Part shown: in pieces, positions 10,128 to 54,941 of the stretch | Position numbering within the stretch: the stretch's first letter is position 1 | How the letters are laid out: each line of letters starts with the position of its first letter | Made by a program: the position numbers and the translations under genes | Notes under the pieces: model-generated | Seen by the model: only the letters and a program-made list of their open reading frames with translations | Told to the model about the DNA's origin: nothing | Database searches by the model: none | Assembly: GCA_027621355.1 (NCBI GenBank) | Contig: JAQCBZ010000001.1 | Location: forward strand, 53,155-117,154 | Origin: Bacteroidota bacterium | GTDB taxonomy: Bacteria; Bacteroidota; Rhodothermia; Balneolales; Balneolaceae | Direction: 5' to 3' | DNA: 64,000 nucleotides

Positions 10128-11468
10128 ATGAATAAAGCTAGCTTTCAACATAGGTCGATACAACTGCTCGCTGGCGCCATGATGATGGGGGTGTTGATGA
10201 TCGCGTCGCCTAACACAGCCTGGGCACAAAATGATGACACTCAAGTAGCCAAAAGTGGTTCTATTTATTCCTATCCAGGCTTTGGCATGCCTGTCGACGT
10301 CATTGGCGCTACGACAGTAACCACCGGATTAGCGGGGATTGGAATGTATGATCCGACGACCTCCAACCTATCCAATCCTGGTGTGTGGGCGTTGTATCAA
10401 TACTCCGTGGGAAGCTTTCAGTTTGGACTCACGAGTCATCATGCAAAAGACACCTTTGGTTCTGCCAAAAACTCGCTTTTCAGCCTAGATCAATTTCACT
10501 TTGTTGCACCGCTGGTCAAGGGAAGACTTGGGCTCTCGGTATCTATGAGCCCCGTGACCCGCTCCAATTTCCGGCTTTACCAAGAGGGCACCTTTACCGC
10601 TGGACCCGATAACATCACCTTCGGAATTGATGAACAAGGAGCTGGGGGGATGAGTCGATTGGAAGTAGGGTTAGGGTACCGAATCACTCGAGGGCTCTCT
10701 GTAGGTGCAGCTCTTGGCTCCTATGTAACTTCGCTGGATAATGAAACCTTTATCTATTTCTCCTCCTTGCGATACACGCCTGTTCTCTTCTCTGAATCGT
10801 TTCGTGGGACAGATTTAGGAGCTAGATTTGGTCTTTTTTACCGCACTCAACCCAAAGATGGGCGTCCCTATGATCTTGAGCTAGGCGCTACCTACCAGCC
10901 AAGCCTTGAAATGGAGCTTGAGCGAAGCAAAGAGGGTTTTAAATCCATCGGCGGGCAAACACAACTGGTGAATCTCGATGTCGATCAAAGCAACCAGTTT
11001 GGCATCATCAAAACAGCTCCTGAGCTCGCTGTTGGGGGGACGATTACATGGAACCGCGCTACGATGATCTCCGCAGAATGGATGCAACAACAATGGGAAG
11101 AGGCTCAATTTGAGCTGGATGCAGAAGAGGAGGCCATGTATTCCAATCGCTCAAAAGTTGGTCTTGGCCTACAGTACCATCCTTTTAGGCGTGTCACTCG
11201 TAATGGATTCTTTCACAATATGAAATATGCGGTGGGAGTATCTCACGATACAGGACACCTCACGATCTCAGGAAACGATATTGTGACAAATAAGCTTGTT
11301 TTAGGACTTGGACTACCTGGACGTAGGTCTACATCTAGCGTTGACTTCACCTTTACGGTCGGCTCTAGAGGAACCGATCGTGATAATCTGCCTGTTGAAA
11401 CTATTTGGGGTGTTGGGGTTTCGTTAAATTTGGCAGAAATTATGTTTGTAAGACCAAAATTTCAGTAA
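10128..11468 (+). CDS. putative outer-membrane beta-barrel protein
   Basis: Signal peptide ending AWAQ, with alternating Gly/aromatic-rich beta-strand-like segments throughout. Start chosen at MNKASF, just after the upstream stop codon. Confidence 0.5.
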   Translation: MNKASFQHRSIQLLAGAMMMGVLMIASPNTAWAQNDDTQVAKSGSIYSYPGFGMPVDVIGATTVTTGLAGIGMYDPTTSNLSNPGVWALYQYSVGSFQFGLTSHHAKDTFGSAKNSLFSLDQFHFVAPLVKGRLGLSVSMSPVTRSNFRLYQEGTFTAGPDNITFGIDEQGAGGMSRLEVGLGYRITRGLSVGAALGSYVTSLDNETFIYFSSLRYTPVLFSESFRGTDLGARFGLFYRTQPKDGRPYDLELGATYQPSLEMELERSKEGFKSIGGQTQLVNLDVDQSNQFGIIKTAPELAVGGTITWNRATMISAEWMQQQWEEAQFELDAEEEAMYSNRSKVGLGLQYHPFRRVTRNGFFHNMKYAVGVSHDTGHLTISGNDIVTNKLVLGLGLPGRRSTSSVDFTFTVGSRGTDRDNLPVETIWGVGVSLNLAEIMFVRPKFQ

Positions 11469-43150: not shown

Positions 43151-43284
43151 GTTTTGTAAATTCATGTCTATCTTTTGGTTAAAGGTGCTTGATTTGATGG
43201 ATGATTCTTTATCAAAACCGCCAAGCCAAACGATAGAGTTGAGTGTTGTGGCACAGCATATTCACTATAAATCAAAGGGGAACC

Positions 43285-43962
43285 GTGGCAAAGAAGAGCA
43301 TATTAGTTGTAGATGACGAGCATGATCTACTCGATCTGCTGGAATACAATCTTAAAAAAGAAGGATTTAAAGTCTATCTAGCAGACAACGGCGAGAAGGG
43401 AATCAACCTTGCCCAAAAACACCAGCCCGATCTGGTGCTCCTGGATGTGATGATGCCTAAAATGAGTGGGTTTGAGGTGTGTGAAGCCCTTCGTCAAGAT
43501 GCAGACATCAAGAGACTGCCCATTATCTTTTTGACAGCAAAAGATGACGAAGCCTCAGAAGTAGAAGGGCTTACCATTGGCGCAGACGATTACATTACCA
43601 AACCCATCAGCACGGTAAAGCTCGTGACGCGAATCAAGGCCTTACTGCGGCGTTATGAGGAGACCGAAGAGTTTGAGGATCAGCTTCGAGCTCTTGACTT
43701 GGTGATTGACCGAGATCGATACATCGTGGTTCGTGGAGCAGAAGAGTTTCAGCTCCCACGCAAGGAATTTGAGCTACTGTACTTTTTAATGAGCCGACAA
43801 GGCAAGGTTTTAGATCGCCAAACGTTATTAAATAAGGTGTGGGGCGATAATATTTATGTTGTTGACCGCACCGTCGATGTTCATGTCCGAAAAATCCGAG
43901 AAAAACTTGGCGAAGGATATATAGAGACGATCAAAGGGGTGGGCTACCGCTTTCGTGAATGA
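43285..43962 (+). CDS. OmpR/PhoB-family response regulator
   Basis: Receiver domain ILVVDDE...DLVLLDVMMP...LTAK. Winged-helix output VDVHVRKIREKL...GVGYRF. Start guessed at the GTG preceded by aaagggg; the ORF track starts at 43243. Confidence 0.88.
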   Translation: MAKKSILVVDDEHDLLDLLEYNLKKEGFKVYLADNGEKGINLAQKHQPDLVLLDVMMPKMSGFEVCEALRQDADIKRLPIIFLTAKDDEASEVEGLTIGADDYITKPISTVKLVTRIKALLRRYEETEEFEDQLRALDLVIDRDRYIVVRGAEEFQLPRKEFELLYFLMSRQGKVLDRQTLLNKVWGDNIYVVDRTVDVHVRKIREKLGEGYIETIKGVGYRFRE

Positions 43963-45056
43963 GCTTTCAATCGTTACGGCGAGCATTTTCTAGGGCAGCA
44001 TTTAGGCTTTCTTTGCCATTATCAGGCATTGTGGCGGCGCTGGTGGGCATCCTTTTGGTATGGCTATCAGACCTCTTTTGGTACTGGATCATCGCAGCCT
44101 CTTTAAGCTCTGGGATTTTTATGATGGTGTGTAGCTATGCCATTATCCATTTATACCATTTTGACCGGCTTCGTCAGCTCCACTCTATTCTTCGAAATAT
44201 CACCAAAAAGGATTTTGGGGAGTATACTGCACGCCAAATCCATCGAGATGAGTTAGATAGCCTGCTCATGCAAGCCATGCGAGCAAGCGAGACCATGGAG
44301 CGAGAAATCGCCCGATTAAATCGGATTGAAAATTATCGCAAAGAATTTATTGGGGATATGTCCCATGAGCTCAAAACACCCATTTTTGCGATTCAAGGAT
44401 TTGTTGAAACGCTTTTGAATGGGGCGATGAATGATCCAAAGGTGAACAAGCAATTTTTGAGTAGGACCATGAAGAATGTGGACCGACTCATTGTCTTGAT
44501 CCAGGACCTAATGGAGATCTCAAAGCTTGAAACGGGTGAAATGCGCGCCAATATGGAGGATTTTTACCTCAAAGAGTGCTTGCTAGATGTTGTTGACGAG
44601 CTGCAGGTTCGGGCTCAAAAAGAGGGGGTGGAGATCCACGTGCAAGACTTTGATAAACACCTCAAGGTTGTGGCGGACCGCGGGCAAATGCGCCAGGTCT
44701 TTGTGAACTTGATGGAAAATGGAATTAAATATAATAAACCAGGCGGAAGGGTAGATGTTGGCCTGAAGCCGTTTCCTAAACGGAGTGAAAAAATCCTTTT
44801 ATACATAAAAGATACCGGCATTGGGATCGCTCAAGAGGACCTAAATCGGGTCACGGAGCGTTTTTATCGAGTAGATAAATCGAGATCTCGCGATAAAGGG
44901 GGTACAGGGCTTGGTCTATCGATCGTCAAGCATATTGTCATGGCCCACGGGGAAAATCTCTATCTTGAAAGTGAACCTGGAGGGGGGTCTACATTTAGCG
45001 TAACCATTGCGCGCCCCTCCGGAGTGGTATTAAACCCAGAAATGGCAGAGGCGTAA
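43959..45056 (+). CDS. sensor histidine kinase (PhoR-like)
   Basis: Two N-terminal TM helices. H-box SHELKTP, N box NLMENGIKY, G boxes DTGIGI and GGTGLGLSIV. Confidence 0.88.
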   Translation: MSFQSLRRAFSRAAFRLSLPLSGIVAALVGILLVWLSDLFWYWIIAASLSSGIFMMVCSYAIIHLYHFDRLRQLHSILRNITKKDFGEYTARQIHRDELDSLLMQAMRASETMEREIARLNRIENYRKEFIGDMSHELKTPIFAIQGFVETLLNGAMNDPKVNKQFLSRTMKNVDRLIVLIQDLMEISKLETGEMRANMEDFYLKECLLDVVDELQVRAQKEGVEIHVQDFDKHLKVVADRGQMRQVFVNLMENGIKYNKPGGRVDVGLKPFPKRSEKILLYIKDTGIGIAQEDLNRVTERFYRVDKSRSRDKGGTGLGLSIVKHIVMAHGENLYLESEPGGGSTFSVTIARPSGVVLNPEMAEA

Positions 45057-45091
45057 CAGCAAACACCGAACGCACCACAACCTAAGTTCTC

Positions 45092-46216
45092 ATGTCAAAA
45101 TCCCCTAGAATTATCGGAGTTCTCATGGCTGGTGGGTCGGGGACTCGTTTTTGGCCTAAAAGCATGCCGAGCAAGCCGAAACAATTTTTATCGCTTTTTG
45201 GCAACCGAACCATGCTTCAAAACACCGTGAGCCGGCTTGACGGGTGGATAGAGCGCGAAGATTGGCGGGTCGTAACCAATGCAGCGTACCGTGAACTGGT
45301 TCAGCGCCAGCTGCCCTGGATGTCGACGGAACAAATACTGGGCGAGCCTGTTGCTAAGAATACAGCCCCGTGTATCGCGGCAGCTGCGGCTAGTGTGTCG
45401 TCAGGAATTAGGGCGGATGCCGAGGGAGCGCAGGAAGACCCAGTGATGGTCGTGATGCCCTCAGATCATGTGATTCAGGACCCCAAGGCGTTTCAAGCGG
45501 TGTTAGACCACGCTGTAGAGGTTGCCATTCAAAGCGATGCGCTTGTAACGATAGGCATTTCGCCGACGCATCCAGAAACAGGCTATGGATACATTCAATT
45601 TGAAAGCCCATCCAGCGCCCAAAACAGCTCACCCCTTGCGGCATCATTAAATGAGAGAGTTCAGGATTATGAGGTCAAGGCGTTTCGCGAGAAACCAGAC
45701 CGCCAAACGGCTGAACTGTACCTAGAGAAGGGAAATTATGTCTGGAATAGCGGATTGTTTGTTTGGCGACTCTCTTCCTTTTTGGAGGCGCTCAAAGAGA
45801 CCATGCCAGACCTGTATGAGCAGTGTGAATCGCTTGCCTCAAAAGGGATGTCTGAAGAAGCCATTCGTCTCTTTTTTGAGGAAGCAGAATCGATTTCTAT
45901 TGACTATGGGCTCATGGAAAAGGCTACAAACGTCCGGGTGGTTCCAGGTGAATTTGGCTGGAATGATGTGGGTAGTTGGACGGCTGCCTATGATTTAGCC
46001 GCCAAAGATTCTGATGGCAATGCATCCAACGCCGAAGCGCTTGTTTCTGTGGGCGCCATGAATAATTATATTGATGTCGACGAAGGGACAGTGGTTGGGA
46101 TTGTGGGGGTTGAGGGGCTGGCTGTGGTTCAATCCGGGGATCGATTGTTGGTATGCCCTATCGATCAGGCGCAAGAGGTAAAAAAAATCGTGGATGAACT
46201 GAAGAATCGCCAGTGA
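45092..46216 (+). CDS. mannose-1-phosphate guanylyltransferase-like nucleotidyltransferase
   Basis: GVLMAGGSGTRFWPKS and GYGYI. 374 aa, with no PMI/cupin extension. Confidence 0.8.
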   Translation: MSKSPRIIGVLMAGGSGTRFWPKSMPSKPKQFLSLFGNRTMLQNTVSRLDGWIEREDWRVVTNAAYRELVQRQLPWMSTEQILGEPVAKNTAPCIAAAAASVSSGIRADAEGAQEDPVMVVMPSDHVIQDPKAFQAVLDHAVEVAIQSDALVTIGISPTHPETGYGYIQFESPSSAQNSSPLAASLNERVQDYEVKAFREKPDRQTAELYLEKGNYVWNSGLFVWRLSSFLEALKETMPDLYEQCESLASKGMSEEAIRLFFEEAESISIDYGLMEKATNVRVVPGEFGWNDVGSWTAAYDLAAKDSDGNASNAEALVSVGAMNNYIDVDEGTVVGIVGVEGLAVVQSGDRLLVCPIDQAQEVKKIVDELKNRQ

Positions 46217-46253
46217 AACCGCGCGCGAGAAGCTGTGCCTGCCTAACGGAGCT

Positions 46254-47012
46254 TCAAATCCAGAGCACTTGCTGATCATGGGCCAAACGAATGTTTGGTG
46301 GTAAGCCATCATGAGTTTGCTGTGTATCCACACTACCATTCATATGAATAAAGTAGGTTTGGGAGACATCTAGAGTCTCCACTAGCTCAACGGCTTGCTC
46401 AATCGTGAAGTGGCTTGGATGCCCATGACCCCATCGAAGAGCTCCGAGGATTAGTATGTCGGCCCCCTCTACAAGAGGTCGGGACGTGTCGGGTAGGCCT
46501 GATATATCGGTCAGGTATACAAGCTCATTGATGCGATACCCTAAAATTGGAAGTGAGCCATGGAGAATGGGGATGGGGGTAATCGTCGCATCCCCAACCT
46601 CAAAAGGCCCCTCAACAGGAATGCAATCTATATGTGTTGATCCAGGGTATCGATCCGAGCCAAACAAATAGTCAAATCTGTGCTGAATCGAGCTCAAAAT
46701 ACGCTCAGATGAGTAGCAGGGGATGGATTTACCGGCATCATAATTAAACGAGCGTAAGTCATCGATGCCTGTGACATGATCCATGTGCTCATGAGTCACA
46801 AGAAGTGCGTCGATCGAGGATAATCCGCTGGCAAGAGTTTGGAGTCTAAATTCTGGGCCTGCATCAATGAGGATAGAGGCCTCCTCGGTTTGCACCCAAA
46901 GAGAGCACCGTGTTCGCTGATCACGAGGGTCGGAGGAGATAGACTCAGCCCCAAAGCCGCCAGCAACAGGCACGCCCATGGAGGTTCCTGTTCCGAGAAA
47001 GATGACTCTCAT
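46254..47012 (-). CDS. MBL-fold metallo-hydrolase
   Basis: HxHxDH motif THEHMDHVTG; 252 aa. Confidence 0.8.
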   Translation of the reverse strand: MRVIFLGTGTSMGVPVAGGFGAESISSDPRDQRTRCSLWVQTEEASILIDAGPEFRLQTLASGLSSIDALLVTHEHMDHVTGIDDLRSFNYDAGKSIPCYSSERILSSIQHRFDYLFGSDRYPGSTHIDCIPVEGPFEVGDATITPIPILHGSLPILGYRINELVYLTDISGLPDTSRPLVEGADILILGALRWGHGHPSHFTIEQAVELVETLDVSQTYFIHMNGSVDTQQTHDGLPPNIRLAHDQQVLWI

Positions 47013-47362
47013 GATGAATCGGAGGCTTGGGACACATCTTGTTCACCGGGGGAGCGATGATCTTCCTGCTCATCAGGGGAGTGATCAATAGACTGCCTTT
47101 GCGCCTCCTTTGCCCAAAACTCATCTAGGAGCTTCCGAACAGAAGGTTTGATGAAGGTTTGCTCCGTGGCAGGATCGCGCTGGAGGACTCGTGCTAAGGC
47201 GCCAATTTGAGACTCTACAGTGCGTCTTGTGTTTAACACAATGCATTTTTCACCCGAAATCACACAGTGATCACTCACAAAGCTCCCTTTTTCTTTGCGA
47301 ATAGAATACCCGATCGCTTCTGCGAGGGCTTCAAGCTCTAAGACAACTTTTTCGGGCTTCAT
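47009..47362 (-). CDS. hypothetical protein
   Basis: 117-aa ORF whose stop overlaps the MBL gene start by 4 bp. Acidic C-terminal tail. No assignable motif. Confidence 0.4.
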   Translation of the reverse strand: MKPEKVVLELEALAEAIGYSIRKEKGSFVSDHCVISGEKCIVLNTRRTVESQIGALARVLQRDPATEQTFIKPSVRKLLDEFWAKEAQRQSIDHSPDEQEDHRSPGEQDVSQASDSS

Positions 47363-47398
47363 GATAGAGAGGGTGAAAGACTACGGTTACTCGCAACA

Positions 47399-48139
47399 TT
47401 AAAATGAGACGCCAACCATCGCACCCCATCCCGAAAGATCGTAATCATACAACTCGCCATCAATTTCATAGCTCGATGTTTCTGCAGTTATCCGAATAAA
47501 CAATCCCGCATTAAGGGCCTTAGGTCGAGCCCGAAGCTCCCCATGAGCGTATAGGCCCTGAAAGGTGCCTCCAAAGATGGAGCCTTGTGAGTTGCTAAAG
47601 CCAAATGCGCCACCGCCGCCCATTAAGAAGGAAAGCCCATTTCCAGCAGATCGAGCCACGACATCGAATCCTCCTCGAGCTTGGAAAGAGCTTTGTGAAA
47701 AGATCGAGGGGCTTTTGTCGAGAGAGACTTTCATAAACTCAGTACGAATCGCAACGGGAGCCAAGAGTTGAAAGGATGGATTCTCTCCGGCAATGAGTAA
47801 GCGACGCCCTAGCTCTGCATAAATAGACCTTGCTGCAGGATCTTCTAAGCCAACGAGGCCATTCGCAAGCCTAAATCCCAATTTTAGGGAAGGTAATTGT
47901 GCCTCTAGCGTAACCATCGGGTGTTCAAACCCAAAATCAGCCTCTCCTTGGGTAAGATTACCCGACGACTCAAAATGTACAAAGGTAAGGCCTGTTGACA
48001 CCGTGACATTGTTCAAGAAGGTTCGTGGGCTTGAGTCTAAAGACTCTGTAAACATTTGAGCCGACACATGTTGTGGCGCAACGAAGAGGATGCACATTAA
48101 AAGGAGCTTAGCGGATAACGCATTTCTTGGATGTAGCAT
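47399..48139 (-). CDS. putative outer-membrane beta-barrel protein
   Basis: Signal peptide LLLMCILFVAPQHVSAQ, Gly/aromatic beta-strand pattern, and a C-terminal residue F. Start trimmed to MLHPRNAL. Confidence 0.5.
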   Translation of the reverse strand: MLHPRNALSAKLLLMCILFVAPQHVSAQMFTESLDSSPRTFLNNVTVSTGLTFVHFESSGNLTQGEADFGFEHPMVTLEAQLPSLKLGFRLANGLVGLEDPAARSIYAELGRRLLIAGENPSFQLLAPVAIRTEFMKVSLDKSPSIFSQSSFQARGGFDVVARSAGNGLSFLMGGGGAFGFSNSQGSIFGGTFQGLYAHGELRARPKALNAGLFIRITAETSSYEIDGELYDYDLSGWGAMVGVSF

Positions 48140-48222
48140 GGTTTGGAACGAAGAGGGAGTGTTGATGGTTTTTACAAAATACAAGACTATCGTATTGCAG
48201 ACTAACCTATTGAAACTGTACC

Positions 48223-48792
48223 ATGAAAATAGTTGCATTAATGATTCCATTCCTTTTCGGTCTTTTTGGCTCAAATGTCAGTCACGACCCTGCTGTGAAA
48301 ATCGCTACTTCTGTTCACGAGTTTGAAGTAAAGACGATCACGGGTAAAGAGGTCTCATTAGCAGAGTACAAAGGAAAAGTACTTCTCATTGTAAACACCG
48401 CATCAAAGTGTGGATATACCCCACAATACGAGGGGCTACAAGAATTGTACGAAACATATAGAGAACAAGGATTTGAGGTTTTAGGATTTCCTTCAGGTTC
48501 CTTCAAACAAGAATTAAGCTCTGACGAAGATATCGCCGAGTTCTGTGATACTCAGTACAGCGTTACATTTCCCATGTTTTCAAAAGTAGATGTTCGCGGG
48601 AACGAACAACACCCACTCTTTAGTTTTTTGACTGGTGAACACGACAAAGAGTCCATGGGTAATGTGAAATGGAACTTTGAAAAGTTCATCGTGTCCAAGG
48701 ACGGTGAGTTGATAAAGCGTTATAGAAGCCGCACGAAGCCAATGGACAAAGACCTTATTGCACTACTCGAGGCTGAATTAGAGAAAGAGTAG
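48223..48792 (+). CDS. glutathione peroxidase
   Basis: VNTASKCGYTPQY catalytic Cys motif, FPSGSFKQE, WNFEKF. Hydrophobic N-terminal leader. Confidence 0.92.
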   Translation: MKIVALMIPFLFGLFGSNVSHDPAVKIATSVHEFEVKTITGKEVSLAEYKGKVLLIVNTASKCGYTPQYEGLQELYETYREQGFEVLGFPSGSFKQELSSDEDIAEFCDTQYSVTFPMFSKVDVRGNEQHPLFSFLTGEHDKESMGNVKWNFEKFIVSKDGELIKRYRSRTKPMDKDLIALLEAELEKE

Positions 48793-48848
48793 TTGCCTCG
48801 GCCGCGCGCTGTGCACGGCAACATTTTATACCGATCTCCATCCCGATA

Positions 48849-48888
48849 GAGGGCCGTAGTTGTTAAGATTACGGCCCTCCTCTTTTTT
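48849..48888 (+). terminator. rho-independent terminator after gpx
   Basis: 10-bp GC-rich stem: gagggccgta (48849-48858) pairs with tacggccctc (48870-48879). A T6 tract follows. Confidence 0.75.
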
Positions 48889-49045
48889 GGACTAGTGATG
48901 AGTTAAACTCAAGACCGATTAACGGCACCTGGAATATCGTTTGAGGCGAAAGTGTCGGTTCAGTTTTAGGATCTGCGAAGAGCAATAGCGGAGAATCTGG
49001 AGTATTGGAACTTGCTTGTAAGGTCCCTATATTTCAGATTCTCTA

Positions 49046-49066
49046 TGGTCCGGTAGTTCAGTTGGT
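49046..49066 (+). repeat. attL: 21-bp direct repeat, a duplicated 5' stub of tRNA-Asp
   Basis: tggtccggtagttcagttggt is identical to 51319-51339. Confidence 0.9.
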
Positions 49067-49121
49067 AATACACAGATCAGTCATAAGTTATATAAAAACA
49101 ACAACTAACGAACTCTCATAT

Positions 49122-49194
49122 ATGATTACAAGATGATTACAAATCGTTGTTTATTGTCTGTTTGAGGGACCAATGATTACAAGATGATTACAAG
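49122..49194 (+). repeat. left-arm ATGATTACAA(G/A) repeats, two tandem pairs
   Basis: Copies at 49122-49132, 49133-49143, 49173-49183 and 49184-49194, all in the same orientation. Confidence 0.9.
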
Positions 49195-49399
49195 TATTCA
49201 TCATCTGTAATCAGTTCAAGTAAGAACCAGAATAGAAGAGTTCTTTTCTCATCATCATAGATCGGTTGTTAGAATGGAAATGTGGAAGACTGGTGGGATA
49301 TCAGAACCACTCACCATGTATGATTTACAGGTAATAGTATTCTATCTATTTCTGTTATATTACGTAGTATGTCTTAATTACTAACTTAATTAATATTTT

Positions 49400-49741
49400 A
49401 TGGAATATGTTAAATACAGGGATATAAGAGATAAATACTGGTTTAGATACTATCCCTCTTCTAAAACACTATACAATATCTTAAACTTCATAACATTCTT
49501 ATTCATCATCATAGGTATTCTTTTGTTTGTTGGAACTATTATTAGTTTTACTGATGGTGGATTATTAAGTGGGATATTTGGTCTTTGGGTAGGAGGAGTT
49601 TTTGTTGCAATACTGATTCAGATATTCATTTTTAGTTTTCTGAAGGAAATGATCAAATTCCAAGTAGATAAAAACTTCTATTACTACGTTTCATGTAGTG
49701 AAGATTTGAAGAAGATCGTAGAGGATGAAAAGAGTGAGTAA
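49400..49741 (+). CDS. small two-TM membrane protein (element cargo), function unknown
   Basis: 113-aa ORF with two long hydrophobic helices (FITFLFIIIGILLFVGTIISF and IFGLWVGGVFVAILIQIFIFSF). AT-rich codon usage matches the integrase gene. Confidence 0.55.
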   Translation: MEYVKYRDIRDKYWFRYYPSSKTLYNILNFITFLFIIIGILLFVGTIISFTDGGLLSGIFGLWVGGVFVAILIQIFIFSFLKEMIKFQVDKNFYYYVSCSEDLKKIVEDEKSE

Positions 49742-49761
49742 CAACCACAAGTGTGATGAAG

Positions 49762-49779
49762 GTGAAGAAACATCTTCAC
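49762..49779. terminator. hairpin between the convergent cargo ORF and integrase gene
   Basis: gtgaaga-aaca-tcttcac, a 7-bp stem. Flanking partial complementarity could extend the stem. Confidence 0.35.
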
Positions 49780-49798
49780 TTCTTGGAGTTGTGATAAT

Positions 49799-51217
49799 TC
49801 ACTCCCCCTGTAATACAGAGTTTATTTCCTTCAATCTGTTCTTGGTATTCAGTTTCCTTGATTGTGATATAGATAGTTCTTTACTGGTGTGTAAGTAGTA
49901 TTTCTCTATCGTCTGTATTTTGTTTCTGGTCATCTGTGAAAGGACCACAAATGAGGAGTTTTTTGAGTGTAGTTCATAGTTTATCATCATATCCCTCAAA
50001 TCGTGAGTTGAACTTATACCATAATCGGAAAGTCCATTTCCTTCAATCAAGAACTTTGTGAAATACTTCCGTAGTGTATCAACATATGTTGGTATAAGGA
50101 GTATCTCGTTTGAGAACATATATAGAATTGTATCAACTATATTGGTTTGATAGGTAGGTTTTAGGTGGTGTATTTCAAGGTAGGTTTCTTTATATGGGAT
50201 ATGTTCAGGTGGTTTCACCCACGAAAACACATCAAAATCCACATTTACTGAACCCCATTTTCTCTTCCAATAAATGTTGAAGATATATCCATTATCATCA
50301 GTTTCCTCCAAATATGAAAAACCACCTTTCGTAGTGTGTTTGTCATCTTTTATTGTCTTTGACTTATATGTGGTTGTTAGTTCTCCGATACGAAATCCAT
50401 ATACAAGTTGGAGGAAAGAGGTGAAGAATATGATCTTCTCTTTTTGGACTATACCTGTTTTGATATACTCTCTCCAAGTATCCCTCATTTCCTTACTACA
50501 AATCTTCAATAGGTTTATGTATTTCTCTTCTGTGTAGAAATCAGGACGAACTTTGTCCCTTATATTGACTGAATACTGATTCTTGATGTATATAGAAGTT
50601 ATGGGGTGGTAAGGAATAACCTTTTTCCCACTTCTTGGTTCTACCAACTCATCAAGGAACTGACGGAAATGAACGAGAGTCACTCTTATCGTTGATGGTT
50701 TTAGTCCTTTATCAACCAACCATGATATGTAGTCATTTACATACTCCTTGAAACTCTCTCTTTGTAAATCTTTTACTGAAATTGGGTTCAAACCAACAAA
50801 TTCCCTGAACTTTCTAATGTGGGATATGATGTCCTGAATAGTTTTCTTTGTTCTTTCTACTCCTCGTTTATTGTCTGAACCTTCACTCCGTAGTTTGAGT
50901 ATGTAATCATCTATGACTTTTAGAAGAGAGGTTCCCTTTTTGGTATAAGTCCCAACCCCTTCTCTTGTTTTCTCTTTGAGTATTTTGGTTGAGTAGATGA
51001 ATGAGTTGATTTCTTCTCCTTTCTTATCAACTGGACAAAGATAGATTAGACGATTGGAACCCTTTGATTTATTGAAATACCAATAGTGTTTGTCCCCTCG
51101 TTTGATGATTACAAACGAACCCTTGGGAATTGTTTTTTCTGTGTCTTGTAAGTATCTTTGAAGTTCGTTTGAGAAACCGAATTGTTCTTTCATAACTCTG
51201 TAATCGTAATCATACAA
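49799..51217 (-). CDS. tyrosine recombinase / phage-type integrase
   Basis: 472-aa ORF with GFRIGEL (Arg I), HDLRD (HxxR) and EKYYLHTS (candidate nucleophile Tyr) in the order expected for a tyrosine recombinase catalytic domain. Confidence 0.8.
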   Translation of the reverse strand: MYDYDYRVMKEQFGFSNELQRYLQDTEKTIPKGSFVIIKRGDKHYWYFNKSKGSNRLIYLCPVDKKGEEINSFIYSTKILKEKTREGVGTYTKKGTSLLKVIDDYILKLRSEGSDNKRGVERTKKTIQDIISHIRKFREFVGLNPISVKDLQRESFKEYVNDYISWLVDKGLKPSTIRVTLVHFRQFLDELVEPRSGKKVIPYHPITSIYIKNQYSVNIRDKVRPDFYTEEKYINLLKICSKEMRDTWREYIKTGIVQKEKIIFFTSFLQLVYGFRIGELTTTYKSKTIKDDKHTTKGGFSYLEETDDNGYIFNIYWKRKWGSVNVDFDVFSWVKPPEHIPYKETYLEIHHLKPTYQTNIVDTILYMFSNEILLIPTYVDTLRKYFTKFLIEGNGLSDYGISSTHDLRDMMINYELHSKNSSFVVLSQMTRNKIQTIEKYYLHTSKELSISQSRKLNTKNRLKEINSVLQGE

Positions 51218-51238
51218 GGAAGAAAAGGAAAACCCGAA

Positions 51239-51273
51239 ATGATTACAAGAATGATTACAAGAATGATTACAAA
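51239..51273 (+). repeat. right-arm ATGATTACAA(G/A) repeats, three copies at 12-bp spacing
   Basis: Copies at 51239-51249, 51251-51261 and 51263-51273. They lie between the integrase start and the tRNA, in the same orientation as the left-arm copies. Confidence 0.9.
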
Positions 51274-51319
51274 TGGAACTGACAAATCCATAAGTTATTG
51301 AAAATCAATGGTATATACT

Positions 51320-51393
51320 TGGTCCGGTAGTTCAGTTGGTTAGAACGCCTGCCTGTCACGCAGGAGGTCGCGAGTTCGAGTCTCGTCCGGATC
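51320..51393 (+). tRNA. tRNA-Asp (anticodon GTC)
   Basis: Folded by hand. Acceptor stem GGTCCGG/CCGGATC (one G-U pair), D arm GTTC/GAAC, anticodon stem CCTGC/GCAGG with loop CTGTCAC, T arm GCGAG/CTCGT with loop TTCGAGT. CCA is not encoded. Confidence 0.93.
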
Positions 51394-51461
51394 GCTCACG
51401 TTGGCAACCCTCTTCTAAATCTCATGAAGAGGCATCGTAAGACATTAAAAAACAGTCATTT

Positions 51462-53339
51462 ATGAACGCTTACGATGTTGTGGTCATAGGGGCTGGGCAT
51501 GCTGGTTCCGAAGCCGCAGCTGCAGCCGCAAAAACAGGATCAAGGACACTGCTCATCACGATGAGTCTCGAAGCCATTGCCAGGATGTCTTGTAATCCTG
51601 CTATGGGTGGTGTTGCAAAGGGTCAATTGGTGCGAGAAATCGATGCGCTTGGTGGCCTGAGTGGCATTGTCAGCGATAGGAGTGGTGTCCAGTTTCGACT
51701 CTTAAATCGAAGCAAGGGGCCTGCAATGTGGTCCCCACGCTGTCAAAGTGATCGACAATTCTATTCTCAGATCATGAGAGAGGAACTGGAATCGATAGAT
51801 AATTTAGATTTTCGACAAGATGATGTCACTGAGCTCATTTTTACTGACGACGGGAGCGCTATCAAAGGGGTTCGGACCCTAACAGACTATGAAGTCCATG
51901 CGAAGGCTGTCGTAGTGACAAGTGGCACATTTTTAAATGGGTTAATTCATATTGGGGAGAAACAATATGGCGGGGGGCGCTCAGGCGAACGAGCCTCCAA
52001 GGGAATCTCGGCTAGCCTGGAATCTATGGGTTTCGAATTGAGTCGACTCAAAACGGGGACACCGCCACGTATTGACGGCCGTAGTGTGAATCTTGATGCT
52101 CTAGAAATTCAATATGGGGATGATGACCCAGTGCCATTTTCTTTTATGACAGACAAGCTGCCTTCGCAACAAGAGCAGCTTACGTGCTGGATTGGATACA
52201 CGGACCCCACAGTACATGAGGCTTTGAGAGGGGGCTTTGATCGAAGCCCGATGTTTAATGGACGCATAAAATCGGTTGGACCGCGGTATTGCCCAAGTAT
52301 TGAGGACAAAATTCATCGATTTGCAGAACGAGATCGACACCAGCTCTTCCTAGAGCCAGAGGGATGGAATACCTATGAGATGTATTTAAATGGTTTTTCA
52401 ACGTCACTACCAGAAGAGGTTCAAATTGAAGCGCTGAACAAAATCGAAGGCTTTGAAAAGGCTCGTATGATGAGACCCGGCTACGCGATAGAGTATGATT
52501 ATGTGCCCCCACATCAAATTAAACGGACCATGGAGACGAAAATCATCTCAGGTCTGTTTTTTGCTGGGCAGATTAATGGAACCACAGGTTATGAGGAAGC
52601 CGCTTGCCAAGGACTAATGGCAGGAGTAAACGCTTCTTTATCGGTTCAAGGCAAGGATCCATTTGTTTTGTTACGATCACAAGGGTATATCGGGGTGCTG
52701 ATTGACGACTTGATTAGCAAGGGGACAGAAGAGCCTTATAGAATGTTTACTTCAAGGGCAGAACACAGAATATTATTGAGGCAGGACAATGCCGATCAAC
52801 GATTGACGGAAATTGGACATGCGCTTGGCCTTGTGACCGAAGAGCGGTATGCCCGTTTCCAACAAAAAATGGAAAAATGCCTTGCATTAGAGCAGTGGGT
52901 TGAGTCTACATCGATCAAGCCTGAGCAAATAAACCCGCTGCTTGAATCCATGGGAAAGTCCCCCATTAAACAGTCTGTAAAGGCAACAGCGATTATTGGT
53001 AGACCTGAGGTGTCACTCGAGATGCTCATCGATGCGGCAAGCGATCGCGAAAGATTAGACGCTATAGGGGCAACTCATCCAGAGATCATGCATACGATTG
53101 AAACACAGTTTAAGTATGCAGGGTATATTGAAAAGGAATTTGAAATGGTTGAGGAGCTAAAAAAACAAGAAGAGCTCACTATCCCTGAGTCCATCCATTA
53201 CAATAAGATCAAAAGTTTGAGCTCAGAAGGAAAATCTAAACTTGAGCATGTGCGCCCAGAAACCCTAGGACAGGCAAGTCGAATCTCTGGCGTATCGCAA
53301 AGCGACCTTGCGGTGCTCTTGGTCTATTTAAAAGGATAA
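51462..53339 (+). CDS. mnmG: tRNA uridine 5-carboxymethylaminomethyl modification enzyme MnmG (GidA)
   Basis: FAD motif YDVVVIGAGHAGSEAA, then GPRYCPSIEDK; 625 aa. Confidence 0.96.
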   Translation: MNAYDVVVIGAGHAGSEAAAAAAKTGSRTLLITMSLEAIARMSCNPAMGGVAKGQLVREIDALGGLSGIVSDRSGVQFRLLNRSKGPAMWSPRCQSDRQFYSQIMREELESIDNLDFRQDDVTELIFTDDGSAIKGVRTLTDYEVHAKAVVVTSGTFLNGLIHIGEKQYGGGRSGERASKGISASLESMGFELSRLKTGTPPRIDGRSVNLDALEIQYGDDDPVPFSFMTDKLPSQQEQLTCWIGYTDPTVHEALRGGFDRSPMFNGRIKSVGPRYCPSIEDKIHRFAERDRHQLFLEPEGWNTYEMYLNGFSTSLPEEVQIEALNKIEGFEKARMMRPGYAIEYDYVPPHQIKRTMETKIISGLFFAGQINGTTGYEEAACQGLMAGVNASLSVQGKDPFVLLRSQGYIGVLIDDLISKGTEEPYRMFTSRAEHRILLRQDNADQRLTEIGHALGLVTEERYARFQQKMEKCLALEQWVESTSIKPEQINPLLESMGKSPIKQSVKATAIIGRPEVSLEMLIDAASDRERLDAIGATHPEIMHTIETQFKYAGYIEKEFEMVEELKKQEELTIPESIHYNKIKSLSSEGKSKLEHVRPETLGQASRISGVSQSDLAVLLVYLKG

Positions 53340-53962
53340 TGTTTCACGTGAAACAATCAGACACGCTGCGTGCTTGCAAGAAGCTGGCCGCAGAGCATAG
53401 CATGGCTCTAAATCACTATGCAGACAGACTGCTCTGGTGGAATGAGAAAGTGAATCTCGTCAGCAGGGATGTTTCACGTGAAACAATCATGAGTCACATT
53501 GAGCACTCATTAACACTGAATGCGTGGCTTAGCCCCATATCTCATTGGGTGGATGCAGGCACGGGTGGAGGGTTGCCTGGCATACCTTTAGCCATTGTGA
53601 ATCCAAGCCTATCGTTTACCTTGAATGACATTGTCCAGAAGAAATGTACAGTCTTGAAATCGATTGTGAGGGAGTTGGGGTTGCCTAATGCGCAAGTGCA
53701 AGAAGGGTCCGTTGCCGATGTTCAGCTTGACCCTAAGACTGGTATTTGCACCAAACATGCATTCAAAATACCACAGCTTCTAAACTTGATTGGAGGGCAG
53801 TCGTCTCAACCAGGTGCAATCTTATGGCTAAAAGGGTTTGAGGAAGCCGTTCAAGACATTGAGAGCCAATCCGAACAAGCATCTTTTGAAATTCTCAGCC
53901 TAGACAGCGGGGAAGACCCATTCTATAAGGGAAAGGCTATTGTGAGGTGGACACCACGCTAA
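53339..53962 (+). CDS. rsmG: 16S rRNA (guanine527-N7)-methyltransferase RsmG (GidB)
   Basis: LLWWNEKVNLVS, and the SAM motif DAGTGGGLPGIPLAI. The ATG overlaps the mnmG stop (TAATG). Confidence 0.9.
   Translation: MFHVKQSDTLRACKKLAAEHSMALNHYADRLLWWNEKVNLVSRDVSRETIMSHIEHSLTLNAWLSPISHWVDAGTGGGLPGIPLAIVNPSLSFTLNDIVQKKCTVLKSIVRELGLPNAQVQEGSVADVQLDPKTGICTKHAFKIPQLLNLIGGQSSQPGAILWLKGFEEAVQDIESQSEQASFEILSLDSGEDPFYKGKAIVRWTPR
53340..53355. promoter_or_regulatory. parS site 1 (perfect 16-bp palindrome TGTTTCACGTGAAACA)
   Basis: Exact match to the chromosomal parS consensus TGTTNCACGTGAAACA. It overlaps the rsmG start codon. Confidence 0.8.
53470..53485. promoter_or_regulatory. parS site 2 (perfect 16-bp palindrome TGTTTCACGTGAAACA)
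   Basis: Identical palindrome 130 bp downstream. The shared block is 21 bp: atgtttcacgtgaaacaatca at 53339-53359 and 53469-53489. Confidence 0.8.
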
Positions 53963-54906
53963 TGAAAGATCTTAACTCTACAGAGCGTGTGATGAAAATG
54001 TTCTCGTTGATGCAATCTTCAACAAAACGCCTCACTATCAATGAGCTAGCCACATTATTTGGCGTATCTAGACGAACCATCTTTCGAGATCTTAATAAAC
54101 TAGAGGCAATCGGCCTTCCTATTACCCACGATCCAGTGGAGGGGTATGGCGTAATGAAAGAGTTTAGAATCCCCCCCATCCAGTTTAATCCCAAAGAGCT
54201 CTCAACCCTCATGGTTGGCATTCAGTTTGTGAAAGCTCAAGTCAATCAATCGTTAAGTGAAGATGCGACCATGGTTGAAAGTAAAATACGCCAGGTTATT
54301 AACCCAGAACTGCGGGCGTTTATGGATCTAATGGCTGAGAGAATGATCATCGATCCAAGCATGACCTTCCAGTCTGAAAAACAAAAAGGAGGAGATTGGT
54401 ACACACTTTCAGGTGCTATTGCTAGTCAGAAAACAATCACATTTTCGTACCGAAATAAAAAAGGCATCACTGAGGACAGAAAAGTAGACCCATACTTACT
54501 CGTTTTTTATACAGATCATTGGAACCTTATTGGATATTCACATGAACGTGAATCGATACGCAATTATATACTAGAAAAAGTAACAAATCTTGTTGTTACA
54601 GATGAAAGCTATGCGCCCAAAGTCAAACTTGACGCCAGGGCCCTGATATTTGATTCTGAGAGCGCAGAAACCATGGTTGATGTGCACGTCGACTCGAAAG
54701 CATTTAAGCGGTTTAGCGCAAATTTACCCACGAAAATAATTAAGTCTAAACCGGAAAACCCCAAAATGATTAAGGTGACTTTTGGCTTCGATAATCTGGA
54801 CTATCTTAATGAATGGCTTCTCCAATTCGGAGCAGATATAAAGGTGATCAGTCCCAAAGAGCTAGTGACCAAACGCCAAGAACTTCTTCACAAGATGATT
54901 TCATAG
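53962..54906 (+). CDS. HTH plus WYL-domain transcriptional regulator (YafY-like)
   Basis: N-terminal HTH LTINELATLFGVSRRTIFRDLNKL. Central WYL-type block ITFSYRNKKGITEDRKVDPYLLVFYTDHWNLIGYS. C-terminal WCX-like region. Start chosen at the ATG overlapping the rsmG stop. Confidence 0.8.
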   Translation: MKDLNSTERVMKMFSLMQSSTKRLTINELATLFGVSRRTIFRDLNKLEAIGLPITHDPVEGYGVMKEFRIPPIQFNPKELSTLMVGIQFVKAQVNQSLSEDATMVESKIRQVINPELRAFMDLMAERMIIDPSMTFQSEKQKGGDWYTLSGAIASQKTITFSYRNKKGITEDRKVDPYLLVFYTDHWNLIGYSHERESIRNYILEKVTNLVVTDESYAPKVKLDARALIFDSESAETMVDVHVDSKAFKRFSANLPTKIIKSKPENPKMIKVTFGFDNLDYLNEWLLQFGADIKVISPKELVTKRQELLHKMIS

Positions 54907-54941
54907 ATCAGCAATAAATCACGGAAAAGTCACCGCCAACT

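What the first reader, a model, noticed from the sequence alone, without database searches (positions are those of the whole stretch)
49046..51339. 2.3-kb mini integrative element inserted into the 5' end of tRNA-Asp
Seen in sequence: a 21-bp perfect direct repeat, tggtccggtagttcagttggt, occurs at 49046-49066 and 51319-51339. The second copy is the first 20 nt of an intact tRNA-Asp(GTC). Between the copies lies visibly AT-rich DNA with only two ORFs: a 472-aa tyrosine recombinase (GFRIGEL, HDLRD, YYLHTS) and a 113-aa membrane protein. Deleting 49067-51339 in silico leaves one intact tRNA behind its upstream region. Two points are unusual. First, the size is close to the minimum for a self-integrating element; I saw no xis, rep, conjugation or capsid genes on either strand. 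Second, the duplicated core is the 5' acceptor/D-arm part of the tRNA, and the integrase sits upstream of the tRNA. The common arrangement is for the 3' half to be targeted.
Basis: partly seen in the sequence, partly recalled or inferred. Interest (0 to 1): 0.7.

Follow-up and report, generated by a model that had tools for sequence, protein, structure and literature searches.

The report
Tiny integrase islet in tRNA-Asp 5' end
A 2,274-bp piece of foreign DNA, made of one unusual integrase gene, its recombination sites and one orphan membrane-protein gene, sits in the front end of a tRNA-Asp gene; a related genome has the same site empty, so the insertion is real, though it is a rare variant of a familiar kind of mobile element.

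Summary
A perfect 21-bp direct repeat (49046-49066 and 51320-51340) covers positions -1 to +20 of tRNA-Asp(GTC) and brackets 2,274 bp of AT-rich DNA (about 33% GC against 46-49% in the flanks). A related MAG with about 93% identical flanks has gpx, spacer, tRNA-Asp and mnmG with nothing inserted. Its two alignments to the window overlap by exactly the 21-bp core.

The 464/472-aa ORF is a tyrosine recombinase by predicted fold and by conserved catalytic residues, but Pfam's catalytic-domain model does not detect it. A profile search of 1.84 billion cluster representatives found only 66 relatives.

Eight exact ATGATTACAA repeats lie inside the element and none elsewhere in the window. Seven of them form clusters at the two ends, as arm-type integrase sites do.

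Relatives with 41-92% identical integrases sit in the same divergent position at the 5' end of tRNA-Asp or tRNA-Arg(CCT). They carry variable cargo: DUF285 surface proteins, type I R-M systems, a resolvase, and HTH_17 Xis-like genes. A strain whose flank is 99.4% identical carries an integrase gene only 89.6% identical, with different cargo.

Targeting the 5'/D-loop part of a tRNA gene is rare but already documented.

Verdict: a real, minimal integrative islet and a new variant of a known kind. Whether it moves today, and how it excises without an RDF, is untested.

The parts
49005..49033 (+). Promoter-like site of the original tRNA-Asp gene (TTGGAA-17-TATATT). The insertion has separated it from the tRNA, and it now points into the element.
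   Evidence: Promoter scan. The site is conserved in the empty-site relative L049, where it lies just upstream of the tRNA. Its function is inferred, not shown.
49046..49066 (+). attL core: the displaced copy of tRNA-Asp positions -1 to +20 (5' acceptor strand, D-stem and D-loop).
   Evidence: In L049 the two alignments to the window overlap on exactly this 21-mer.
49067..51340 (.). The inserted DNA, 2,274 bp (equivalently 49046-51319), low in GC.
   Evidence: Composition profile. Absent from L049. Present in the near-identical metagenome contigs L036 and L041, and in part in L037 and L038, whose contigs end inside the element.
49082..49091 (+). CATAAGTTAT motif, 15 nt from the core. A second copy lies at 51289-51298.
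   Evidence: repeat family D7. The same CATAAGTT lies 15 nt from the distal core in Gracilimonas halophila L002. Function unknown.
49122..49193 (+). Distal (P'-side) arm-type repeats: two tandem pairs of ATGATTACAA (49122-49142 and 49173-49193).
   Evidence: 8 exact copies in the window, all inside the element, against 0.19 expected by chance.
49400..49741 (+). Cargo ORF of 113 aa, a predicted two-helix membrane protein with no known relatives.
   Evidence: Hydropathy. The only match among 5.8 billion clusters is itself. No Pfam, PHROGs, NCBIfam or PADLOC hit.
49799..51193 (-). Integrase gene, 464 aa from the ATG (the open frame runs on to a TTG at 51217, giving 472 aa). A divergent tyrosine recombinase with an N-terminal beta-sheet domain, a SAM_5 core-binding domain and a catalytic domain.
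51239..51272 (+). Integrase-proximal (P-side) arm-type repeats: three tandem ATGATTACAA units with a 12-bp period. Close strains have two.
51289..51298 (+). Second CATAAGTTAT motif, 21 nt upstream of the attR core.
   Evidence: repeat family D7.
51320..51340 (+). attR core: the 5' part of the restored tRNA, supplied by the element.
51321..51395 (+). Intact tRNA-Asp(GTC), the integration target.
   Evidence: ARAGORN. Rfam RF00005, 69.4 bits.

Best explanation
This is a minimal site-specific integrative element (a genomic islet) of 2,274 bp.

How it got there. Its own tyrosine integrase recombined an element site (attP) with the D-loop/5' region of the chromosomal tRNA-Asp(GTC) gene (attB). attP carries tRNA positions 1-20, so the tRNA is rebuilt at attR from element-derived 5' sequence joined to host 3' sequence. 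The host's original 20-nt 5' fragment is pushed 2.27 kb upstream to attL, together with the host promoter. Strand exchange most likely happens in the D-loop, at the 3' edge of the 21-bp identity block (about +14 to +20).

How the integrase probably works. It is probably heterobivalent, as lambda Int is: an N-terminal domain binds the ATGATTACAA arm-type repeats clustered near both ends, while the core-binding and catalytic domains act on the tRNA D-arm.

What the element carries. Only the integrase, the att sites and one orphan membrane-protein gene. It is the smallest member found here of a small, sequence-isolated integrase clade that carries variable cargo into the 5' ends of tRNA-Asp and tRNA-Arg(CCT) genes of Balneolales-like marine and brackish bacteria.

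Shown: the insertion, its exact boundaries, the empty site, the recombinase fold and conserved catalytic residues, the repeat architecture, the family-wide target geometry, and different element variants at one site in near-identical hosts.

Inferred: the position of the crossover, arm binding by the integrase, present-day activity, how the tRNA is transcribed after losing its promoter, and how the element excises and moves between cells without an RDF or transfer genes.
For: Boundaries and empty site. The 21-bp perfect repeat equals -1..+20 of the tRNA. L049 has flanks about 93% identical and lacks the 2,274 bp; its two alignment segments overlap by exactly the core.

Foreign composition. GC is about 0.33 inside against about 0.47 outside.

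Integrase.
- PF13102 SAM_5 domain at E 5.7e-6; PHROG_1 integrase at E 4.4e-9.
- AlphaFold model with pLDDT 78, whose top four PDB matches are all tyrosine recombinases at probability 1.0.
- R276, K318 (on a beta-hairpin), H405, R408 and Y441 are invariant in 26 homologues. Position 432, nine residues before Y441, is His in the deeper branches and Asn here.

Arm-type sites. There are 8 exact ATGATTACAA copies, all inside the element, against 0.19 expected. Seven of them cluster at the two ends. Relatives have equivalent tandem repeats whose sequence changes with the integrase lineage: TTGTATTCAC in L007 and TTCATAATC in L001/L002, the latter at both ends of the L002 element.

Family-wide geometry. 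The integrase gene diverges from the 5' end of tRNA-Asp in L005, L006, L007, L044, L045-47 and L051, and from tRNA-Arg(CCT) in L001, L002 and L052. L002 has a 21-bp repeat at -1..+20 bracketing 4,555 bp.

Recent mobility. Against L005, the window's mnmG and downstream flank are 98.7-99.4% identical, but the integrase gene is only 89.6% identical, and similarity stops at the integrase stop codon, where a DUF285 gene replaces the orphan ORF.
Against: - No attP circle or excision junction was found, although only viral contigs and the loci already fetched could be searched.
- The element has no Xis/RDF candidate, whereas some relatives have HTH_17 genes. Autonomous excision is therefore doubtful.
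- No sigma-70-like promoter was detected between the integrase gene and the restored tRNA, so how the tRNA is expressed is unexplained.
- The catalytic domain is not recognised by PF00589: only 1 of 26 family members hits it, at E 0.006. Profile searches against PDB sequences and lambda Int are not significant. The active-site assignment therefore rests on the predicted fold and on conservation.
- All close strains found carry the element, and all data come from metagenome assemblies.
Confidence: 0.85

Rival explanations
1. A stranded remnant. A larger island of this family (integrase, HTH_17 Xis, resolvase and defence or surface cargo) integrated and then lost nearly everything by internal deletion. 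What remains is an integrase and an orphan ORF that can no longer excise or spread on their own. This keeps the integration history in the best explanation and denies only present-day autonomy.
For: Every other member with enough sequence is larger: 4,555 bp in L002, and more than 7.5 kb to more than 11 kb in L001, L042, L043 and L051. Several carry an HTH_17 gene or a resolvase that the window lacks. No RDF candidate is present. No excision product was found.
Against: - Both arm-repeat clusters, both CATAAGTTAT motifs and both cores are intact, and the cores are perfect.
- The integrase ORF is full length with every conserved residue.
- A random internal deletion would have had to spare the distal arm exactly.
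- Different element variants at the same site in hosts with 99.4% identical flanks argue for recent turnover.
Confidence: 0.3
2. A non-autonomous hitchhiker. The islet is a satellite of a phage, or is mobilised by a conjugative element, and relies on that helper for packaging or transfer.
For: It has no transfer, replication or packaging genes of its own, so some outside route between cells is needed. Tycheposon-like marine elements are proposed to travel in vesicles or virus particles (bioRxiv 10.1101/2020.12.28.424599).
Against: - The integrase clade was not found in 2.9 million IMG/VR viral contigs.
- tblastn found no match in 50,697 phage records or 72,556 plasmid records.
- There is no oriT, relaxase, terminase or capsid signal.
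- At 2.3 kb it is far below any known satellite.
Confidence: 0.1
3. Not an insertion at all: ancestral host DNA with a chance repeat, or an assembly chimera.
For: One metagenome contig (L039) joins the tRNA-Asp to a different upstream sequence (part of a tRNA-Phe plus a 118-bp spacer). This shows that assemblies around this tRNA can be inconsistent.
Against: - Chance expectation for the repeat is 0.01.
- There is a precise empty site in a relative.
- The same structure was assembled independently in several samples: L036 and L041 show the left end and gpx flank, and L037 and L038 show the right end and mnmG flank.
- A GC step coincides with the repeats.
- The same architecture recurs at another tRNA in cultured Gracilimonas genomes.
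Confidence: 0.01

Closest known systems
Klebsiella pneumoniae genomic islands integrated upstream of tRNA-Arg 'arg2' (arg2A-VII and clade I.d integrases; bioRxiv 10.1101/2020.11.02.365908)
   Same: [quoted passage not shown] The island lies upstream of the tRNA, unlike nearly all other tRNA islands. That paper's authors describe this as a novel 'D-loop' sublocation.
   Different: According to that paper, those integrases have the ordinary N- and C-terminal integrase domains, belong to Gammaproteobacteria and carry full-size islands. The integrase here is missed by PF00589 and has only 66 detectable relatives among 1.84 billion representatives. The element is 2.3 kb.
pTN3-like integrases of Thermococcales (as reviewed in PMC8371274)
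   Same: attB is the 5' half of a tRNA gene. The rebuilt tRNA must be transcribed from an element-borne promoter rather than its own.
   Different: They are archaeal. The review says the recombinant tRNA is expressed from the integrase promoter. Here the integrase gene points away from the tRNA, so a separate outward-facing promoter would be needed. The integrase gene is intact and the att core lies outside it.
Tycheposons of Prochlorococcus and other marine bacteria (bioRxiv 10.1101/2020.12.28.424599)
   Same: A tyrosine recombinase next to a tRNA gene, flanked by full and partial tRNA copies. Modular, swappable cargo. Small serine recombinases and xis genes in the larger members. Each integrase lineage is tied to particular tRNAs. 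No conjugation genes.
   Different: Whether the two integrase groups are related was not tested. Many tycheposons carry replication modules; none was seen here. The window element has only one orphan gene. I did not establish the sublocation used by tycheposons.
Lambda Int-type heterobivalent integrases (mechanistic model)
   Same: Three-part layout: an N-terminal beta-sheet-plus-helix domain, a core-binding domain and a catalytic domain. Repeated arm-type sites differ from the core and flank it on both sides. The profile aligns weakly to the lambda Int arm-binding segment (E 0.079).
   Different: There is no significant sequence similarity. All arm repeats point the same way. The element has no Xis. 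The target is a tRNA D-arm.
Bacteroidota-type integrases with a SAM_5 core-binding domain (for example the NBU1/NBU2 and CTnDOT lineages; cited from general knowledge, not tested here)
   Same: The only Pfam domain detected is PF13102 Phage_int_SAM_5. The hosts belong to the same broad FCB lineage.
   Different: As far as I know, those integrases are recognised by PF00589, and those that use tRNA genes use the 3' end. Here the catalytic domain escapes PF00589 and the target is the 5' end.

Membership tests
Tyrosine recombinase superfamily | Catalytic residues R-K-H-R-(H/W)-Y in the conserved order and spacing | tested here: met
   R276, K318, H405, R408 and Y441 are invariant in 26 sequences. 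Position 432, nine residues before Y441, is His in deeper branches and Asn in the window protein. K318 lies on a predicted beta-hairpin.
Tyrosine recombinase superfamily | Core-binding plus catalytic fold | tested here: met
   AlphaFold2 model with pLDDT 78.3. Foldseek PDB ranks 1-4 are XerH (5jjv), lambda Int (1z19), Tn1549 Int (6emy) and an S. aureus integrase (3nkh), each at probability 1.00.
Pfam PF00589 Phage_integrase (sequence-model membership) | Score above the model's threshold | tested here: not met
   The window protein has no hit. Only 1 of 26 family members hits, at E 0.006. A family profile against PDB sequences finds nothing.
Pfam PF13102 Phage_int_SAM_5 (core-binding domain) | Score above the gathering threshold | tested here: met
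   27.1 bits against a cut-off of 22.3, residues 98-190. 17 of 26 members match at E 0.01 or better.
Heterobivalent (arm-binding) integrases | Repeated arm-type sites, distinct from the core, in both arms of attP | tested here: met
   ATGATTACAA occurs four times near attL and three times near attR. All 8 exact copies are inside the element, against 0.19 expected. L002 has equivalent repeats at both ends.
Heterobivalent (arm-binding) integrases | N-terminal arm-binding domain | tested here: inconclusive
   The model shows three beta-strands followed by a helix in residues 33-84. hhalign to the lambda Int N-terminus gives E 0.079. No binding data exist.
Heterobivalent (arm-binding) integrases | A cognate excisionase/RDF encoded by the element | tested here: not met
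   The window element has no candidate ORF. Relatives L001, L043 and L051 carry HTH_17 genes.
tRNA-integrated genomic island (Islander criteria, PMC4383910) | An intact tDNA plus a displaced fragment in the same orientation (a 5' fragment must lie upstream), an integrase gene between them, and a length of 2-200 kb | tested here: met
   The 5' fragment lies upstream. The 2,274 bp is just above Islander's 2-kb cut-off.
tRNA-integrated genomic island | An unoccupied attB in a related genome | tested here: met
   L049, the TMED105 MAG.
Classical tRNA sublocations (anticodon loop, T-loop, asymmetric 3' end; Williams 2002 as summarised in PMC8371274) | [quoted passage not shown] | tested here: not met
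   The identity block is -1..+20 (5' acceptor strand, D-stem and D-loop), and the promoter-like site is displaced.
pTN3-like / SSV-type integrases | attP lies inside the integrase gene, so integration splits the gene (general knowledge of SSV-type integrases) | tested here: not met
   The integrase ORF is intact, and the core lies 127 bp upstream of its start.
Tycheposons | The integrase belongs to the tycheposon tyrosine-recombinase clades | not tested
Only the architecture was compared.
ICE / IME | A relaxase, oriT or type IV secretion genes | tested here: not met
   No such domains in either ORF. No match to 72,556 plasmid records.
Prophage or phage satellite | Capsid, terminase, packaging or phage-regulation genes, or relatives in viral data | tested here: not met
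   Among PHROGs families, only the integrase family matched. Nothing was found in IMG/VR or in phage records.

The most novel reading that the evidence does not exclude
This integrase clade may have made 5' tRNA targeting into a strategy. By entering at the D-loop, it separates the tRNA from its strong native promoter and redirects that promoter into the element. There it would drive the distal cargo gene. The orphan ORF here, and the 484-aa gene in Gracilimonas halophila, both face inward from the displaced promoter. The element then re-supplies the tRNA with its own 5' part and promoter. One deep-branching member (L052) seems to go further and carry a whole replacement tRNA-Arg gene, leaving the host copy truncated at the D-stem.

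On this reading, the 2.3-kb element shows that integrase plus att sites, about 1.9 kb, is a complete promoter-capturing cargo platform.
Probability: 0.2. Interest if true: 0.65.

Novelty: new variant of a known kind. Interest (0 to 1): 0.5.

Why it matters
tRNA genes are the classic landing sites for genomic islands, and almost all known cases use the 3' part so that the tRNA keeps its promoter. Here a whole integrase clade consistently uses the 5'/D-loop part, in at least two different tRNA species, with precise att sites and a natural empty site.

That gives a clean system for three questions:
- How is a tRNA re-expressed after its promoter is removed?
- How does a D-arm serve as a core site?
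- How small can a self-integrating element be?

The integrase is invisible to the standard Pfam catalytic-domain model, and the element is barely above the 2-kb cut-off of island finders. Elements like this are therefore probably missed systematically in marine Bacteroidota-like genomes. A compact integrase of about 1.4 kb with a defined 21-bp tRNA target and short arm sites could also interest people looking for new site-specific integration tools.

Tried and rejected
- **Sequence links to known integrases.** phmmer and a family profile against PDB sequences found nothing relevant. hhalign against lambda Int was not significant. NCBIfam and PADLOC gave nothing.
- **The orphan ORF.** Its only match among 5.8 billion clusters is itself. 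It is unrelated to the 114-aa protein conserved in larger relatives.
- **Phage or plasmid origin.** No relatives in IMG/VR, INPHARED phage records or PLSDB plasmid records.
- **Circular attP junction.** An exact 34-mer spanning the deduced junction was absent from viral contigs and from all 52 fetched loci.
- **Contig L039.** It at first looked like an alternative junction or an empty site, because it matches the window exactly from 51320 onward. Its upstream part is a partial tRNA-Phe plus spacer, and its tRNA has C5T, which creates a T5·G68 wobble. I judged it most likely an assembly join across a paralogous tRNA-Asp and did not use it as evidence.
- **A promoter for the restored tRNA.** The sigma-70 scan found none between the integrase gene and the tRNA. 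By eye I found no convincing Bacteroidota-type -7/-33 motif. This is left open.
- **Distant relatives (23-29% identity, about 500-570 aa; L003, L004, L010-L035).** No tRNA or other Rfam RNA was found next to them (ARAGORN on all, Rfam on a subset). The 5'-tRNA habit cannot be extended to them.
- **Second repeat copy in L001, L007 and L044.** None was found within the available sequence, so those elements are longer or their contigs end first.
Full report
**1. The observation**

The 21-mer TGGTCCGGTAGTTCAGTTGGT occurs exactly twice in the 64-kb window, at 49046-49066 and 51320-51340. Even allowing three mismatches there are no further copies, and shuffled sequence gives 0.01 matches on average.

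ARAGORN finds a single tRNA in the window, tRNA-Asp(GTC) at 51321-51395, and Rfam confirms it at 69.4 bits. The repeat is therefore the base before the tRNA plus its first 20 nucleotides: the 5' acceptor strand, the D-stem and most of the D-loop.

GC falls to 0.31-0.38 between the repeats, against 0.45-0.50 on either side.

Two credible ORFs lie inside:
- a 472-aa frame on the minus strand, 49799-51217. It is probably 464 aa, starting at the ATG at 51193, where homologues and gene callers begin.
- a 113-aa frame on the plus strand, 49400-49741, with two strongly hydrophobic segments.

The flanking genes are glutathione peroxidase (48223/48241-48792) and mnmG/gidA (51462-53339).

**2. The decisive test: an empty site**

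Homologues of the glutathione peroxidase led to a 35-kb contig of the MAG 'Rhodothermaceae bacterium TMED105' (GCA_002171395.2, locus L049). There gpx is followed after 395 bp by mnmG, with nothing between them except the spacer and tRNA-Asp.

BLAST against the window gives two segments:
- L049:2987-8844 matches window 43211-49066 at 93.3% identity.
- L049:8824-12416 matches window 51320-54912 at 93.4% identity.

The two segments overlap in L049 by exactly the 21-bp core. Deleting 49067-51340 from the window gives a sequence that aligns colinearly with L049, without gaps, across the whole junction.

This is what a conservative site-specific insertion of 2,274 bp looks like. It excludes a chance repeat or ancestral DNA.

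Near-identical contigs from independent samples carry the same insertion. L036 spans the whole element. L037 and L038 end inside it on the mnmG side. L041 runs from gpx through the left core into the orphan ORF.

**3. The recombinase**

By sequence it is an outlier.
- Pfam sees only the SAM_5 core-binding domain (PF13102, E 5.7e-6). PHROGs matches the integrase family only over residues 70-253. NCBIfam gives nothing.
- Of 26 family members, one reaches PF00589, at E 0.006.
- The word-indexed search of 5.8 billion clusters found 25 homologues, all unnamed metagenome proteins.
- An exhaustive profile search of 1.84 billion cluster representatives found only 66 proteins at E 0.001 or better, many of them fragments. 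The clade does not connect by HMMER to the mainstream integrases.

By structure and conservation it is a tyrosine recombinase.
- An AlphaFold2 model (pLDDT 78) has XerH, lambda Int, Tn1549 Int and an S. aureus integrase as its four best PDB matches, each at probability 1.0.
- The family alignment has invariant R276, K318 (on a predicted beta-hairpin), H405, R408 and Y441. Position 432, nine residues before the tyrosine, is His in the deeper branches and Asn in the window protein.
- Residues 33-84 are predicted as a three-stranded sheet followed by a helix. This is the layout of an arm-binding domain. The only part that aligns to lambda Int, weakly (E 0.079), is that N-terminal segment.

**4. 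The recombination sites**

ATGATTACAA occurs eight times in the window, against 0.19 expected by chance, and all eight copies are inside the element:
- two tandem pairs 51 bp apart near attL (49122-49193);
- three tandem copies with a 12-bp period between the integrase start and attR (51239-51272);
- one inside the integrase gene (51105).

Close strains have two copies at the integrase-proximal arm instead of three, a 12-bp length polymorphism.

Relatives have tandem repeats in the same place with lineage-specific sequences: TTGTAATCAT in L005, TTGTATTCAC in L007, and TTCATAATC in the Gracilimonas loci. In G. halophila they also occur near the distal end.

A further motif, CATAAGTT, lies 15 nt from the distal core in both the window and G. 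halophila.

This pattern fits a lambda-type heterobivalent integrase. Binding itself was not tested.

The element supplies the 5' part of the rebuilt tRNA, so the crossover must lie at the 3' end of the identity block. That places it in the D-loop, with the D-stem as a flanking inverted repeat. This is the mirror image of the well-known anticodon-loop and T-loop sites, and it is an inference. In G. halophila the attL and attR sequences first differ at position +21, which is consistent with it.

**5. The family**

| Locus | Integrase identity to window | Target tRNA | Notes |
|---|---|---|---|
| L001, L002 (cultured Gracilimonas genomes) | about 50% | tRNA-Arg(CCT) | In G. halophila (L002) a 21-bp repeat, again -1..+20 of the tRNA, brackets 4,555 bp |
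| L005, L045-47 | 92% | tRNA-Asp | Different cargo (DUF285) |
| L006, L007, L044 | 60-62% | tRNA-Asp | L044 has the same mnmG-gidB-WYL-gyrA neighbourhood as the window |
| L051 | 49% | tRNA-Asp | Carries HTH_17, a resolvase and type I R-M genes |
| L052 | 41% | tRNA-Arg(CCT) | Unusual layout, described in section 9 |

In every one of these loci the integrase gene diverges from the 5' end of the tRNA. L008 (39%) has no tRNA beside its integrase gene and abuts a protein-coding gene instead.

Cargo varies across the family: DUF285/BspA-like surface proteins, type I restriction-modification systems, DNA methyltransferases, a small serine recombinase with two conserved small ORFs, and HTH_17 (Xis/AlpA-like) genes.

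The window element has none of these. It is the smallest member found.

More distant relatives (about 25% identity, 500-570 aa) are not next to any tRNA or Rfam RNA.

**6. Evidence for recent movement**

Against contig L005, the window's mnmG and downstream flank are 98.7-99.4% identical. The integrase gene is only 89.6% identical, and similarity ends at the integrase stop codon, beyond which L005 carries a DUF285 gene in place of the orphan ORF.

Hosts that are nearly the same strain across this locus therefore carry different element variants at the same site, and a relative at about 93% identity has the site empty. Independent acquisition or replacement explains this better than vertical descent.

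Direct proof of excision is missing. The deduced attP junction was not found in viral contigs or in any fetched locus, and raw reads could not be searched.

**7. Consequences for the tRNA**

A promoter-like site, TTGGAA-17-TATATT at 49005-49033, lies just upstream of the tRNA in the empty site. After insertion it points into the element, towards the orphan ORF 350 nt away on the same strand, with no predicted terminator between them.

The rebuilt tRNA now sits behind about 100 bp of element DNA in which the sigma-70 scan finds no promoter. How it is transcribed is unknown.

A published review notes that bacterial integrations almost always keep the tRNA's own promoter. It also notes that archaeal pTN3-like integrases, which use the 5' half, rely on an element promoter, 'a similar situation … seldomly encountered in bacteria' (PMC8371274).

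**8. Comparison with what is known**

In kind, this is a tRNA-integrating genomic island driven by a tyrosine integrase, which is well known. It passes the Islander criteria, including the allowed '5' fragment upstream' configuration, and is just above Islander's 2-kb lower limit (PMC4383910).

It departs from the norm in four linked ways:
- The sublocation is the 5'/D-loop part. This is reported for Klebsiella arg2 islands, where the authors call it novel (bioRxiv 10.1101/2020.11.02.365908), and for archaeal pTN3-like elements.
- The integrase gene diverges from the tRNA, so the tRNA promoter must be replaced.
- The integrase clade is isolated in sequence.
- The element is extremely small and has no RDF, replication or transfer genes.

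In ecology and architecture the family most resembles cargo-carrying tycheposons of marine bacteria: a tyrosine recombinase next to a tRNA, swappable cargo, small serine recombinases and xis genes (bioRxiv 10.1101/2020.12.28.424599). Whether the integrases are related was not tested.

I rate it a new variant of a known kind. The mechanism is ordinary in principle. The combination of features and the integrase clade are not described in anything I could find.

**9. Side observations**

- **L052.** The arm repeats lie beyond an intact tRNA-Arg(CCT) that abuts the integrase gene. They are followed by a second tRNA-Arg(CCT) copy of different sequence that lacks positions 1-9. This reads as an element carrying a complete replacement tRNA and leaving the host copy truncated at the D-stem. 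If so, it is a different answer to the promoter problem and independent support for a D-arm crossover.
- **L039.** This contig joins a partial tRNA-Phe and a 118-bp spacer to a tRNA-Asp with C5T, then matches the window exactly. The resulting T5·G68 wobble suggests an assembly join across a paralogous tRNA-Asp, so I did not rely on it.

**10. Verdict**

Confidence is high (about 0.85) for a 2,274-bp element inserted by site-specific recombination at the D-loop/5' end of tRNA-Asp by a divergent tyrosine integrase. Confidence is moderate to low for present-day autonomous mobility.

Interest is moderate, 0.5. It gives a tidy minimal example and an undescribed integrase clade with a rare target geometry, and it raises a testable question about promoter replacement and capture. 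It is not a new principle.

Noticed in passing
L052:6800-8529 (ERZ28593479 scaffold_7961): A 41%-identical integrase sits 45 nt from an intact tRNA-Arg(CCT). Its arm-type repeats (TTTGTTATC, two copies) lie on the far side of that tRNA. They are followed by a second tRNA-Arg(CCT) copy of different sequence that lacks positions 1-9. It looks as if the element carries a whole replacement tRNA and leaves the host copy truncated at the D-stem.
   Followed up: partly
L039:1-260 (ERZ23495042 scaffold_12882), against window 51320 onward: This contig is 99.96% identical to the window from exactly the start of the core onward. Upstream it has a partial tRNA-Phe plus a 118-bp spacer instead of the element or gpx, and its tRNA has C5T, giving a T5·G68 wobble. 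It is probably an assembly join across a second tRNA-Asp gene, but an alternative real junction is not excluded.
   Followed up: partly
window 49005-49033 and 49400-49741; L002:8690-10144 and 10418-10438: The displaced native tRNA promoter-like site now faces the orphan cargo ORF, on the same strand, with no predicted terminator between them. In Gracilimonas halophila the distal cargo gene is oriented the same way relative to the displaced tRNA upstream region. This could be promoter capture, but it rests on two cases only.
   Followed up: partly
window 49082-49091 and 51289-51298; L002 about 10396-10403: A CATAAGTT(AT) motif lies 15 nt from the distal core in both the window and G. halophila, even though their arm repeats differ. 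A second copy lies 21 nt before the attR core in the window. It may be a site for an accessory factor or an additional integrase site.
   Followed up: no
window 51239-51272, against L036, L005 and L045: The integrase-proximal arm has three 12-bp repeat units in the window and two in otherwise 99.8%-identical contigs and in the 92% variant. This is a copy-number polymorphism in a putative integrase-binding array that overlaps the integrase promoter region.
   Followed up: partly
L005:9417-10072, L045:1616-2623, L001:9695-11755, L043:10642-14815: DUF285 (BspA-like leucine-rich repeat) secreted proteins recur as cargo in several lineages of this element family. Others carry type I R-M systems, methyltransferases and a resolvase with two conserved small ORFs (70 aa and 114 aa).
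   Followed up: partly
L003, L004, L010-L035: A more distant sister group of longer proteins (about 500-570 aa, 23-29% identical) occurs in marine and freshwater metagenomes and in uncultured Bacteroidetes single-cell genomes. No tRNA or Rfam RNA lies nearby. Many of these contigs begin 150-350 bp upstream of the gene, which hints at an assembly break at their own attachment site.
   Followed up: partly
window about 46254-47012 (-): Three genes upstream of gpx there is a 252-aa metallo-beta-lactamase-fold gene. Its precomputed Pfam hits include PF23023 (Anti-Pycsar Apyc1), as seen in the gene tables for L036 and L040. It is conserved in the empty-site relative, so it is a host gene and not part of the element.
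   Followed up: no
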